Source: Escherichia coli
GTDB taxonomy: Bacteria > Pseudomonadota > Gammaproteobacteria > Enterobacterales > Enterobacteriaceae
Strand: one strand, 5' to 3'
Length of the DNA: 64,000 bases
Assembly (NCBI RefSeq): GCF_011045215.1
Contig: NZ_CP049201.1
This document shows positions 42,401-45,400 of this stretch, piece by piece. A program made the position numbers. Each line of letters starts with the position of its first letter. The first letter of the stretch is position 1.

Positions 42401-45400
42401 TGAAGGCTTGCAGCATAAGCCTTCTGATAACGTTTTTTCGCTTCCGCACGGGCAGGCTTGCCGGAGGACGTTCGGGGAATGCTGTGGGGCGGCAACAGAT
42501 CGATAGCCGCGGTCACGCCAAATTCGCTTTGGATCCGTGCTGCCAGCGCGTGGATAAGCTGCCCGCGACGTTCTTCATCGCTGATCCGACACTGGATCTG
42601 CAAAATGATTTTTTCCTGGGCGGTAACAAAAGCAATCGCATCGCCAGAATGAATTTCCGGTTCCTGTTCCGCTATATATTCAATATCCTGCGGCCAGATA
42701 TTACGGCCACGAATAATAATCAGATCTTTAATGCGTCCGGTGACATACAGATAACCGTCCAGCAGATAACCGAGGTCGCCAGTGTCTAACCAGCCCGTCG
42801 CGGCAATCTCGTCTTGCGAAGCCTGGTCGCCAAAGTAACCGCTCATCAGACTGGGACCGGAGATGCAAATATGGCCTACCACACGTTCCGCGACCGGCAT
42901 ACCTGCTTCATTGCGGATTTCAATACCATGTTCCGGCAACGCTTTGCCGCAGTTGACGAAAGTCGATACGGCGCGTGTCTCTGCACCCGGCGCGACGGCT
43001 TTACCCTGATATTCGAGGATGTCGCGATCCACTTCGTTAACCACAACCCCGGAGGCTTCATCAGAGAAGCTGACAGCCAGCGCATTTTCTGCCAGTCCGT
43101 AGCACGGCATGAAAGTTTTATTGTCAAAGTTAACCTGACGGAAACATTCAGCGAATTGATGGAGTTGTTCTGCGGAGATGGGTTCTGCACCAATACCAGC
43201 GACGCGCCAGCAGGAAAGATCCAGTTCAGCGAGATCTTTTTCATTCACGCGGCGCTGGCACAATTCATAGCCAAACGGCGGCGCAACGGAAACGGTGCCG
43301 CGATTTTTACTGATCAATTTAAGCCATTGCAGAGGACGCATGGCAAAATCCTGAGTGCGCAAATAATCTACTGAAAGTTGCGTGGCGACGGGGGTCAGGA
43401 GAAAGCCGACCAGTCCCATATCATGGTAGAAAGGCAGCCAGGAGACGCAGCGGTCGCCAGGGCGTAATTTAATGCCATCGTGGCTTATGGCGCGTAGATT
43501 AGCCATCACTTCGCGGTGAGTGATAATGACGCCACGGGGAAAACGGGTGCTGCCGGAGGTGTACTGGAGGTAGGCGATATCGTCCGGAACTGGGCGCTGG
43601 AGCGCAACATCGGCTTCCGGTAATGCCTTAAACCAGGCGTGGCTTAAAACATGTAATTCGGGGTTGTCATGCGTCGCGGCATTGACCAGTGGCAACCACT
43701 CATCACCAGTGATAATGGCTGCGGGCTGGCAACTTGCCAGTAAACCCTGCAGTTTGGCGCTCCAGGAATCCCGCTGACCGACGCCCATTGGAATCGCCAA
43801 CGGGACGGCGACTAAGCCGGCATACTGGCAGGAAAAAAAAGCCTCTACGAACCCGCTACTGGTTTCGGCAATCAGCGCCACGCGATCGCCTTTTTTCAGG
43901 TTTAGCGATAACAACCGCTTCGCACCAGCTTCGGCACGCGCTTTTAACGTCTGATATTCCAGTTGATCTTCAAGTTGGCAACGTCTGTCATAAAAATTCA
44001 TTCCAGCGCTACTCAGAGCGGCGTAGTCCAAAGCATCAACCAGCGTTGGAAAATCGGCATAGCGCATAGGTAGGGAATGCGTAAAGATTTTATTAGACAT
44101 ATACACCACGAAAAAATTGGATATCCAAAATAAAATGACAATAATGCGGTGGATTATATAGGCATAAAAGATAAATGAGATAGTATTTTCATCAGTGTGA
44201 AAATGAACATTGATTTAAATAATGAGTTTGAGTTTTTTTGTTTTTATTGTGAATGATATTTAATTTATGAATATATTAAGAAGAAGCCTTGTCCGGTCGC
44301 CTTAAATCGACAAAAGGCATTGTGGCGCTTCTGTGTAGTCGCTGACCTTATCGTAATCATTAATAAATACTATTTATTCGTCGTTTGTATTCATTGGGTT
44401 GATTATTAAGGTGCCGTTCGTTGCTGTTGCAACCTGTTTGTCACCGTTAATTATTTGTTACCCACAGAACTATGGAATGCGATCTGCTGATGATTAAAAT
44501 TGAAAAAGTAATTAATAAAAATGACCTTAAGGCATTTATCGCTTTTCCGTCATCACTTTATCCCGACGATCCAAACTGGATACCCCCTTTATTCATTGAA
44601 CGCAACGAGCATTTGTCTGCGAAAAATCCGGGGACGGACCATATCATCTGGCAGGCGTGGGTGGCAAAAAAAGCGGGGCAGATAGTTGGGCGTATTACCG
44701 CGCAAATAGATACCTTGCACCGCGAGCGTTACGGCAAAGATACCGGTCATTTCGGCATGATTGACGCCATTGATGATCCGCAGGTTTTTGCCGCGTTGTT
44801 TGGCGCAGCGGAAGCGTGGTTGAAGTCACAAGGTGCAAGTAAGATCAGCGGTCCTTTCAGCCTGAATATCAATCAGGAAAGCGGATTACTGATTGAAGGT
44901 TTCGATACACCACCCTGTGCGATGATGCCGCACGGTAAACCGTGGTATGCCGCGCATATTGAACAATTGGGTTATCACAAAGGCATTGATTTACTGGCGT
45001 GGTGGATGCAGCGAACCGATCTCACTTTCTCTCCGGCGCTAAAAAAACTGATGGATCAGGTGCGCAAAAAGGTGACCATTCGCTGCATCAATCGCCAGCG
45101 GTTTGCCGAAGAGATGCAGATCCTGCGTGAGATTTTCAACTCTGGCTGGCAGCACAACTGGGGATTTGTGCCGTTTACCGAACATGAATTCGCGACCATG
45201 GGCGACCAACTTAAATATCTGGTGCCGGACGATATGATCTACATCGCTGAGATTGATTCTGCACCCTGCGCGTTTATTGTCGGCTTGCCGAACATCAACG
45301 AGGCGATTGCCGATCTGAACGGATCGCTCTTTCCCTTCGGCTGGGCAAAATTGCTGTGGCGTTTGAAAGTCAGCGGTGTGCGAACTGCGCGAGTGCCGCT

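What the first reader, a model, noticed from the sequence alone, without database searches (positions are those of the whole stretch)
44101..44471. Long AT-rich divergent control region between the acyl-ACP-synthetase operon and the yghO-like gene
About 370 bp of AT-rich non-coding DNA separates the two divergent units. It contains reiterated TGAAT..ATATT elements, a GTTGCAAC palindrome and a TTGTCAC element. The length and composition are typical of silenced or tightly regulated horizontally acquired promoters (for example H-NS targets), suggesting the lipid module is conditionally expressed.
Basis: partly seen in the sequence, partly recalled or inferred. Interest (0 to 1): 0.4.

Follow-up and report, generated by a model that had tools for sequence, protein, structure and literature searches.

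The report
Control region of E. coli sphingolipid genes
This AT-rich spacer is the shared, so far unstudied promoter region between the two divergent halves of E. coli's known ceramide (sphingolipid) gene cluster; it is an ordinary kind of regulatory DNA, and the idea that H-NS silences it is plausible but untested.

Summary
Positions 44101-44471 are a 371-bp non-coding spacer with 32% GC, between genes of 50-58% GC. It is one of the three most AT-rich stretches in the window.

The flanking units are already published. They are the E. coli dihydroceramide genes aasR-epi-acpR-spt (minus strand) and yghO, also called aca (plus strand). In BL21(DE3) these are ECD_02851-54 and ECD_02850 (PMC9386255).

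The spacer has two parts:
- **aasR-proximal 100 bp (44101-44200):** nearly invariant across Escherichia, with 6% variable columns against 49% at four-fold sites. It carries an invariant TATAAT on the aasR strand and no usable -35.
- **Remaining ~270 bp:** changes at about the neutral rate but stays at 29-32% GC.

GTTGCAAC and TTGTCAC occur at chance frequency and are not conserved. The TGAAT..ATATT pair lies in a small conserved island.

There is no Rfam hit, no significant RNA fold and no strong sigma-70 promoter.

H-NS binding could not be tested. K-12 and O157 Sakai lack the locus, and no usable ChIP table was found. Published BL21 lipid data imply that the native genes are silent in laboratory culture.

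Other Enterobacterales have a longer spacer with a conserved element that Escherichia lacks.

Verdict: a real but ordinary regulatory region of low to moderate interest.

The parts
44101..44471 (.). Whole divergent spacer between aasR and yghO: 371 bp, 32% GC.
   Evidence: Present at 80% coverage or more in 4134 of 5426 complete E. coli genomes.
42379..44109 (-). aasR, a fatty acyl-AMP ligase that acts as the acyl-AcpR synthetase. Start is GTG 44109 or ATG 44100; RefSeq often uses ATG 44067.
   Evidence: Pfam AMP-binding 8e-58. NCBIfam fatty acyl-AMP ligase, 876 bits. The N-terminus is conserved across genera. Equals ECD_02851.
41468..42382 (-). epi (cerR-like), an NAD-dependent reductase.
   Evidence: Pfam Epimerase 1e-20. 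Equals ECD_02852.
41188..41436 (-). acpR, the specialised acyl carrier protein.
   Evidence: Pfam PP-binding 1e-13. 100% identical to the protein encoded in L001, which carries the same accession as the BL21 protein (WP_000248097.1).
40016..41188 (-). spt, serine palmitoyltransferase.
   Evidence: NCBIfam equivalog for serine palmitoyltransferase, 597 bits against a cut-off of 500. PDB 2JG2, 7e-111. RefSeq names it spt in BL21.
44472..45614 (+). yghO, also called aca: the N-acyltransferase assigned to dihydroceramide synthesis. The real start could instead be ATG 44490.
   Evidence: PMC9386255, Fig. 9 legend: 'aca... yghO ECD_02850'. No Pfam or NCBIfam model matches. Alignments to other genera begin at residues 5-7.
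44101..44200 (-). aasR-proximal block under strong purifying selection. Proposed to be the aasR core promoter plus its 5' UTR.
   Evidence: 6 of 100 columns vary, against 49% at four-fold sites (P about 9e-21). At least 95% identical in 4143 of 4145 E. coli genomes.
44153..44158 (-). Perfect TATAAT hexamer on the aasR strand, invariant in Escherichia. The best -35 at 17 bp spacing is ATCTCA (3 of 6).
   Evidence: Read from the sequence. Aligned A/T-rich hexamers occur in Pseudocitrobacter (TATAAC or TATAAA) and Hafnia (TATAAT).
44201..44445 (.). Fast-evolving AT-rich stretch with indels. Candidate substrate for nucleoid-associated proteins. The yghO promoter must lie here or just downstream.
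   Evidence: 45% of columns in 44201-44471 vary, about the neutral rate. GC stays at 0.29-0.32 in all seven Escherichia sequences. 580 E. coli genomes are below 95% identity over 44281-44380.
44246..44283 (.). Small conserved island holding both TGAAT..ATATT copies, and the best match to the H-NS motif as I recall it (TTCATAAATT, minus strand, 44271 down to 44262).
   Evidence: 9 of 38 columns vary (P = 0.0014 against four-fold sites)..
44426..44433 (.). GTTGCAAC palindrome. Not a constrained element.
   Evidence: Chance frequency. Removed by a 7-bp deletion in two Escherichia lineages and mutated in a third.
44438..44444 (.). TTGTCAC word, part of a TTTGTYACC direct repeat with 17-nt spacing. 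Not a constrained element.
   Evidence: Chance frequency. Reads TTTTCAT or TTTTCAC in the two other E. coli strains aligned.

Best explanation
The region is the shared regulatory spacer of the E. coli dihydroceramide (sphingolipid) gene cluster. The operon aasR-epi-acpR-spt is read leftwards from it and yghO (aca) rightwards.

Shown here:
- The identity of the flanking genes.
- The divergent layout, which is conserved in about 40 species.
- Strong purifying selection on the 100 bp next to aasR.
- Neutral-rate change in the rest, with low GC persisting.

Inferred:
- The conserved block is the aasR core promoter plus a 5' UTR of about 37-46 nt. The -10 hexamer is TATAAT at 44158 down to 44153, which puts the start site near 44146. 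Conservation ends about 47 bp upstream of that point.
- With no usable -35, this promoter should need an activator or a particular condition.
- The variable AT-rich remainder holds the yghO promoter. It is the kind of DNA that H-NS, StpA and other nucleoid-associated proteins bind.
- A short H-NS patch over both promoters, together with the weak promoters, would keep the cluster off in laboratory culture until an unknown signal relieves it.
For: Gene identities: and PMC9386255.

Layout: the divergent arrangement is conserved in Enterobacterales and in Pseudomonas. The spacer is always more AT-rich than its flanks: GC 0.26-0.43 in the Enterobacterales and 0.42-0.53 in the two Pseudomonas, against 0.42-0.63 in the flanking genes.

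Conservation anatomy: 44101-44200 has 6% variable columns against 49% at four-fold sites. The rest has 45%, while GC stays at 0.29-0.32.

Promoter: the TATAAT hexamer is invariant, and -10-like hexamers align with it in related genera.

Coding genes: first and second codon positions are about 98% conserved against 81-87% at third positions. So the genes are maintained and must be expressed somewhere.

Silence in culture: BL21(DE3) has this same spacer allele, with one substitution and one 5-bp duplication. With AcpR and AasR from Caulobacter alone, or a serine palmitoyltransferase alone, its lipid profile matched the empty vector. The full three-part combinations did yield 3-oxo-sphinganine (PMC9386255). 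This implies the chromosomal genes were not effectively expressed.

H-NS plausibility: the region is among the most AT-rich DNA in the window. H-NS binding tracks AT content, and short H-NS regions favour operon-upstream DNA (PMC4287617; PMC3064808).
Against: - No transcription start site, ChIP or expression data for this region could be obtained.
- A simple sigma-70 matrix scan (hexamer frequencies recalled from memory) finds no strong promoter on either strand, and the TATAAT has no good -35.
- The genes have normal GC and the AT-rich patch is short. Classic long-tract silencing of foreign DNA does not fit.
- Low GC in neutrally evolving non-coding DNA can come from mutation bias alone.
- The BL21 evidence rests on thin-layer chromatography under one growth condition, compared with T7 overexpression.
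Confidence: 0.55

Rival explanations
1. It is an ordinary AT-rich spacer with two weak promoters that depend on a specific transcription factor or alternative sigma factor. Nucleoid proteins play no meaningful part, and low GC simply reflects mutation bias in unconstrained DNA.
For: The distal 270 bp changes at the neutral rate. H-NS-motif matches equal the compositional expectation. Other ordinary spacers in the window are just as AT-rich: gss-pitB 0.30, yghT/yghS 0.31, glcA-sslE 0.29. The flanking genes have native GC.
Against: H-NS binds AT-rich operon-upstream DNA largely by composition. A 100-bp window here falls to 18% GC. The cluster appears silent in BL21.
Confidence: 0.3
2. The Escherichia spacer is a degraded version of the ancestral control region. 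Escherichia has lost the mid-spacer element that is conserved in other genera. Its yghO-side control is therefore decaying and the cluster is on the way to being lost.
For: A conserved element of 100-140 nt is found in Serratia, K. indica, Pantoea, Tatumella, Erwinia, Shimwellia, Pluralibacter, Sodalis, Hafnia, C. amalonaticus and Rahnella. Profile searches do not detect it in Escherichia. The Escherichia spacer is about half as long. About 24% of complete E. coli genomes lack the region, including K-12 (IS5-associated deletion) and O157 Sakai.
Against: All five genes are intact and under purifying selection across Escherichia lineages. The aasR-proximal 100 bp is extremely conserved. The cloned E. 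coli AasR, AcpR and Spt are active.
Confidence: 0.1
3. The conserved 100 bp encodes an RNA-level device: a riboswitch-like leader, a small RNA, or the 12-codon upstream ORF MKILSHLSFMPI (44192 down to 44154, minus strand) that controls aasR translation.
For: Conservation is stronger than a bare promoter usually needs. The short ORF is kept in all Escherichia lineages, with one Pro-to-His change. A possible pairing between 44151-44163 and the aasR start region appears in the minimum-energy fold.
Against: No Rfam match even at E = 1. Fold z-scores are -0.08 and +0.11. The short ORF has no Shine-Dalgarno sequence. It would also lie upstream of the start site implied by the TATAAT. With near-total invariance, covariation and codon-pattern tests are not possible.
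Confidence: 0.05

Closest known systems
Sphingolipid (dihydroceramide) gene cluster of the alpha/beta/gamma-proteobacterial type: aasR, acpR, spt, epi, aca. Described in Caulobacter crescentus CC_1162-1165 and CC_1154, and in E. coli BL21(DE3) ECD_02850-02854 (Padilla-Gomez et al. 2022, PMC9386255).
   Same: The window carries the same five genes in the same order as BL21. The L001 reference locus (99.5% identical to the window over the 1.4-kb query used to find it, and encoding identical AcpR and YghO) carries the same AcpR, Spt and YghO protein accessions as BL21. The window spacer differs from BL21's by one substitution and a 5-bp duplication.
   Different: The papers characterise the enzymes. 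I found nothing on this spacer, its promoters or native regulation in E. coli. In Caulobacter aca is not placed divergently next to aasR: it is CC_1154, against CC_1162-1165.
Short H-NS binding regions upstream of operons (the under-1-kb class of Kahramanoglou et al. 2011, PMC3064808).
   Same: A patch of about 300-370 bp of AT-rich DNA confined to an operon-upstream spacer, flanked by genes of normal GC. That class acts like a mild, transcription-factor-like repressor.
   Different: Occupancy by H-NS has not been shown here. The class was defined in K-12, which lacks this locus.
H-NS/StpA-repressed promoter of yghJ(sslE)-pppA-gsp, the type II secretion cluster about 11 kb away. This is my own recollection of Yang et al. 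2007, J Bacteriol, and was not checked here.
   Same: Same chromosomal neighbourhood, a similarly AT-rich upstream spacer (glcA-sslE, GC 0.29), and accessory envelope-related genes.
   Different: That case has experimental support. This one has none, and the two spacers share no sequence.

Membership tests
H-NS-silenced (xenogeneic) promoter region | DNA markedly more AT-rich than the genome average | tested here: met
   GC is 0.32 overall and falls to 0.18 in a 100-bp window, against 0.518 for the whole window.
H-NS-silenced (xenogeneic) promoter region | Long (over 1 kb) AT-rich tract covering the silenced genes, which have foreign base composition | tested here: not met
   The AT-rich patch is about 300-370 bp. 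The flanking genes are 50-58% GC, and the cluster at 50.7% matches the window at 51.8%. Class definition from PMC3064808.
H-NS-silenced (xenogeneic) promoter region | H-NS or StpA occupancy in vivo, and derepression in hns mutants | not testable with these tools
   K-12 and O157 Sakai lack the locus. The H10407 ChIP-seq paper gives no H-NS peak table. No paper links yghO with H-NS regulation.
H-NS-silenced (xenogeneic) promoter region | Excess of high-affinity H-NS sites (TCGATAAATT-like; motif recalled from memory) | tested here: not met
   8 matches with up to 3 mismatches, against 7.4 in composition-matched shuffles.
Horizontally acquired island | Patchy distribution across taxa and a variable chromosomal context | tested here: met
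   Found in scattered Enterobacterales species and two Pseudomonas. The module order is shuffled, and glcC is the neighbour only in Escherichia. However, it is present in all four non-coli Escherichia lineages sampled, so the acquisition is old.
Dihydroceramide cluster of the alpha/beta/gamma-proteobacterial type | Serine palmitoyltransferase directly preceded by a dedicated ACP gene | tested here: met
   Spt matches the NCBIfam equivalog at 597 bits (cut-off 500) and PDB 2JG2 at 7e-111. An 82-aa PP-binding protein ends where spt begins.
Dihydroceramide cluster of the alpha/beta/gamma-proteobacterial type | Dedicated acyl-ACP synthetase (AasR), reductase (epi) and N-acyltransferase (aca) | tested here: met
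   A fatty acyl-AMP ligase and an epimerase-family reductase are present. The yghO = aca assignment comes from PMC9386255 and was not re-derived here. Same gene order as BL21.
Sigma-70 divergent promoter region | Recognisable -35 and -10 pairs on both strands, and mapped start sites | tested here: inconclusive
   The consensus scan does not exceed shuffles. The matrix scan gives only weak candidates. There is one perfect, invariant TATAAT on the aasR strand without a -35. Start sites cannot be mapped here.
Cis-regulatory RNA or small RNA | Match to a known RNA family, or a stable or covarying structure | tested here: not met
   No Rfam hit at E up to 1. Fold z-scores range from -1.0 to +0.1.

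The most novel reading that the evidence does not exclude
Natural E. coli isolates, about three quarters of sequenced complete genomes, can make ceramide-type sphingolipids, but only under a specific signal that has not been found. That signal would be read by the near-invariant 100-bp block next to aasR (an unknown activator or RNA-level switch) and would act against repression by nucleoid proteins over the AT-rich spacer. In this reading, Escherichia replaced the ancestral mid-spacer control element of other Enterobacterales with its own circuit.
Probability: 0.2. Interest if true: 0.6.

Novelty: new member of a known kind. Interest (0 to 1): 0.25.

Why it matters
E. coli is the textbook example of a bacterium with only three major membrane phospholipids. 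Yet most natural strains carry an intact, selectively maintained ceramide pathway whose enzymes work when overexpressed.

K-12 and O157 Sakai have both lost the locus. Nothing I found in the literature available here describes when it is switched on.

This spacer is where that decision must be made. Knowing that one 100-bp block is under strong constraint, while the rest is free to vary, tells an experimenter which DNA to use for reporter fusions, pull-downs and deletions.

As it stands, the region itself is an ordinary AT-rich divergent promoter region. The claim of H-NS silencing is a reasonable guess, not a finding.

Tried and rejected
- **Known RNA families:** no Rfam hit in the window region at E up to 1, and none at gathering threshold in four related loci.
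- **RNA folding:** five segments on either strand gave z-scores from -1.0 to +0.1. The GC-richer hairpin at 44282-44332 is no better than shuffles and is not conserved.
- **Small ORFs:** the 29-32-aa ORFs lie in non-conserved DNA. The 12-aa upstream ORF has no ribosome-binding site.
- **Conserved protein gene in the longer spacers of other genera:** none found. The short ORF at the start of their conserved element is missing or frameshifted in several genera.
- **Structure in that conserved element:** RNAalifold predicted zero pairs.
- **Common operator shared with the cluster's other divergent spacer (yghT/yghS):** no excess of shared words, 3 against 2.1. The TGTCAC-type repeats in both are not conserved.
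- **Homology of the spacer outside Escherichia:** only chance-level AT-rich matches.
- **Transcription-factor guesses by eye (Fur, ArgR, PmrA, CRP, sigma-54, sigma-E):** none fitted in spacing or conservation, so none is claimed. No yghO or ygh entry appears in the supplementary files held for the H10407 CRP ChIP-seq paper. That table may use ETEC locus tags, and I did not confirm that H10407 carries the locus.
- **Literature:** no H-NS, start-site or expression data for this locus. Olea-Ozuna et al. 2021 is not held.
- **Regulator gene next to the cluster in other genera:** downstream contexts differ, and no regulator recurs among the ORFs listed; only one was checked against Pfam.
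Full report
**What is in the sequence.** Positions 44101-44471 contain no long ORF. They lie between a minus-strand ORF (42379-44100, or to 44109) and a plus-strand ORF (44472-45614). GC falls to 0.265 in 44100-44299 and is 0.32 over the spacer. The flanking genes are 0.50-0.58. Only two other places in the 64-kb window are as AT-rich over 300 bp: near 30.8 kb (gss-pitB) and near 55.2 kb (glcA-sslE).

**What the flanking genes are.** The window is an E. coli chromosome segment running hyb, yghU, gss, pitB, yghT, yghS, yghR, yghQ and on to glcC-glcDEFGBA and sslE. The leftward unit encodes four proteins:
- a fatty acyl-AMP ligase,
- an epimerase-family reductase,
- an 82-aa acyl carrier protein,
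- a class I/II aminotransferase.

The aminotransferase meets the NCBIfam equivalog for serine palmitoyltransferase (597 bits, cut-off 500). Its best solved relative is the Sphingomonas enzyme 2JG2 (7e-111).

Padilla-Gomez et al. 2022 (PMC9386255) describe exactly this gene set in E. coli BL21(DE3). They name aasR ECD_02851, epi ECD_02852, acpR ECD_02853, spt ECD_02854 and 'aca: yghO ECD_02850'. These are the five genes for dihydroceramide synthesis. The authors showed that the cloned E. coli AasR, AcpR and Spt together make 3-oxo-sphinganine. The BL21 locus has the same order. Its AcpR, Spt and YghO accessions match those of the L001 reference locus, which is 99.5% identical to the window over the 1.4-kb query used to find it. 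I found nothing published about this spacer.

**Distribution.**
- The spacer is present at 80% coverage or more in 4134 of 5426 complete E. coli genomes.
- K-12 lacks it. IS5 sits in the 5' end of yghO, and everything from there to part of yghQ is gone.
- O157 Sakai lacks the whole neighbourhood. The SpLE3 element abuts a truncated pitB.
- This explains why the usual K-12 and O157 ChIP and start-site resources say nothing about the region.
- A scan of one genome per species found the same divergent arrangement (spt, acpR, epi, aasR leftwards, yghO rightwards) in about 40 Enterobacterales species and two Pseudomonas.
- The spacer is 271-1095 bp long and always more AT-rich than its flanks.
- The larger set yghT-S-R-Q, a 274-aa protein, a YtfJ-family protein, LptF/LptG paralogues and the five ceramide genes travels together in shuffled order. 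glcC is the neighbour only in Escherichia.
- The block therefore behaves as an old, mobile island. In Escherichia it has native GC (50.7% against 51.8%), and it is in all four non-coli Escherichia lineages sampled.

**Anatomy of the spacer.** I aligned the window, two other E. coli strains (one phylogroup B2) and four other Escherichia lineages. Four-fold degenerate sites in aasR and yghO served as the neutral yardstick, with 49% variable columns.

| Segment | Variable columns | Against neutral |
|---|---|---|
| 44101-44200 | 6 of 100 | P about 9e-21 |
| 44026-44100 (first aasR codons) | 5 of 75 | similarly constrained; P 3e-10 against the third-position rate |
| 44201-44471 | 122 of 271 (45%) | indistinguishable from neutral; has indels |
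| 44246-44283 | 9 of 38 | P = 0.0014; a small conserved island |

GC stays at 0.29-0.32 in every lineage. The population data agree. The proximal 100 bp is at least 95% identical in 4143 of 4145 E. coli genomes, while 580 genomes fall below 95% over 44281-44380.

**Promoters and RNA.**
- On the aasR strand the conserved block holds a perfect, invariant TATAAT (44158 down to 44153).
- Conservation stops about 47 bp upstream of the start site this hexamer implies (near 44146). It runs down through a leader of 37-46 nt to the start codon. That is the footprint expected of a core promoter plus 5' UTR.
- The -35 position is poor (ATCTCA), which suggests dependence on an activator.
- Related genera with the same type of leader have A/T-rich -10-like hexamers aligned with it or close by: TATAAC or TATAAA in Pseudocitrobacter and TATAAT in Hafnia.
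- Neither a consensus scan nor a simple matrix scan finds a strong sigma-70 promoter in either direction.
- The yghO promoter could not be placed.
- There is no Rfam match, and no segment folds better than shuffles.

- GTTGCAAC occurs at chance frequency. A 7-bp deletion removes it in two Escherichia lineages, and it is mutated in a third.
- TTGTCAC occurs at chance frequency. It reads TTTTCAT or TTTTCAC in the two other E. coli strains aligned.
- The two TGAAT..ATATT copies are the only ones in the window and are unlikely under local shuffles. The pattern was chosen after the fact, and a generic repeat test shows no excess.
- Those two copies do lie in the small conserved island. That island also holds the best match to the H-NS motif as I remember it. 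It is the one motif worth keeping as a candidate protein-binding site.

**H-NS and silencing.**

In favour:
- The DNA is very AT-rich, down to 18% GC in a 100-bp window.
- H-NS occupancy tracks AT content (PMC4287617).
- Short H-NS regions prefer operon-upstream DNA (PMC3064808).
- BL21(DE3) has this spacer allele apart from one substitution and a 5-bp duplication.
- In BL21, supplying Caulobacter AcpR and AasR alone, or a serine palmitoyltransferase alone, gave no new lipid. The full three-part combinations did. So the chromosomal spt, and the chromosomal aasR and acpR, were not effectively expressed on complex medium at 30 degrees C.

Against, or limiting:
- The AT-rich patch is short and the genes have normal composition. 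The long-tract 'silencing of foreign genes' picture does not apply.
- H-NS-motif matches equal the compositional expectation.
- Low GC in neutrally drifting DNA needs no selection.
- I could obtain no occupancy or expression data.

**Other genera.** In Serratia, K. indica, Pantoea, Tatumella, Erwinia, Shimwellia, Pluralibacter, Sodalis, Hafnia, C. amalonaticus and Rahnella the spacer carries a conserved element of 100-140 nt.
- Its invariant words are ACAGTAT, AAAAGTGAA and GCATTAAGTGGTAAAA.
- It usually sits 300-330 nt upstream of yghO.
- It has no consensus RNA structure, so it is a DNA-level element.
- Its word-spacer-word layout could be a pair of back-to-back core promoters, but this is unproven.
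- Profile searches do not find it in Escherichia, Pseudocitrobacter, C. youngae, Rosenbergiella or Pseudomonas.
- Escherichia therefore has a shorter control region specific to its lineage.

**Conclusion.** The most likely account is an ordinary divergent promoter region. It has a tightly constrained, activator-dependent aasR promoter and leader, and a free-evolving AT-rich remainder that carries the yghO promoter. That remainder is a plausible short binding patch for H-NS or StpA, which would keep the ceramide genes off in culture. I put about 0.9 on 'divergent control region of the ceramide cluster' and about 0.4-0.5 on H-NS involvement. The combined statement gets 0.55.

The rivals are no role for nucleoid proteins (0.3), a decaying control region (0.1) and an RNA-level device in the conserved block (0.05).

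The kind of thing is well known and the cluster is published. Only the regulatory anatomy is new, so interest is low to moderate.

Noticed in passing
L015:2311-2449, L021:7606-7744, L038:7588-7725, L007:7574-7713 and other loci: A conserved DNA element of 100-140 nt sits in the middle of the aasR/yghO spacer in at least 11 genera. Its words are ACAGTAT, AAAAGTGAA and GCATTAAGTGGTAAAA, and it usually lies 300-330 nt upstream of yghO. It has no RNA consensus structure and no Rfam hit. It is absent from Escherichia. It may be a pair of back-to-back core promoters or an operator.
   Followed up: partly
window 32644-45614; loci L003-L046: The following genes co-occur in shuffled order across Enterobacterales and in Pseudomonas capeferrum: yghT, yghS, yghR (kinase-like), yghQ (flippase-like), a 274-aa protein, a YtfJ-family protein, LptF/LptG paralogues and the five ceramide genes. 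This suggests one island that makes, modifies and exports a sphingolipid. In Pantoea brenneri a DgkA-like kinase (PF01219) follows yghO. Similar-looking ORFs in Pantoea sp. A4 and S. proteamaculans were not scanned.
   Followed up: partly
window 44067-44109, minus strand: The aasR start codon is annotated inconsistently. RefSeq uses ATG 44067 in many genomes. However, the upstream residues MSNKIF (ATG 44100), and MVY before them (GTG 44109, which is ATG in Citrobacter, Hafnia and Pseudocitrobacter), are conserved across genera.
   Followed up: partly
window 44472-44492; L051:22417-22430: The yghO start is uncertain. ATG 44472 has no Shine-Dalgarno sequence. Most other genera align only from residues 5-7 and have AAGG about 6 nt before the Met that corresponds to residue 7 (ATG 44490). 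BL21(DE3) has a 5-bp ACAGA duplication immediately upstream of ATG 44472.
   Followed up: no
window 33416-33441: The cluster's other divergent spacer (yghT/yghS, GC 0.31) contains a direct repeat, AATGTCACAAT and ATTGTCACAAT, 16 nt apart. No significant motif is shared with the aasR/yghO spacer.
   Followed up: partly
L002 (K-12) 8147-9341; L049 (O157 Sakai) 25350-26853: The two best-studied E. coli strains have each lost the locus independently. K-12 lost it through an IS5-associated deletion from yghO codon 10 or so into yghQ. Sakai lost it by replacement up to a truncated pitB, next to the pheV island SpLE3.
   Followed up: yes
window 30800-31100 and 55190-55620: Two other spacers are as AT-rich as the finding: gss-pitB (GC 0.30) and glcA-sslE (GC 0.29). 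From memory, the second is a known H-NS-repressed promoter region for the type II secretion cluster.
   Followed up: no
L045; L030: A 430-bp contig labelled Macrococcus sp. is 99% identical to E. coli yghO, which is probably contamination. Shimwellia pseudoproteus has a second yghO copy with no ceramide genes beside it.
   Followed up: no
One of the roughly 4170 matches to this region in E. coli assemblies lies on a record labelled as a plasmid. I did not identify which one.
   Followed up: no
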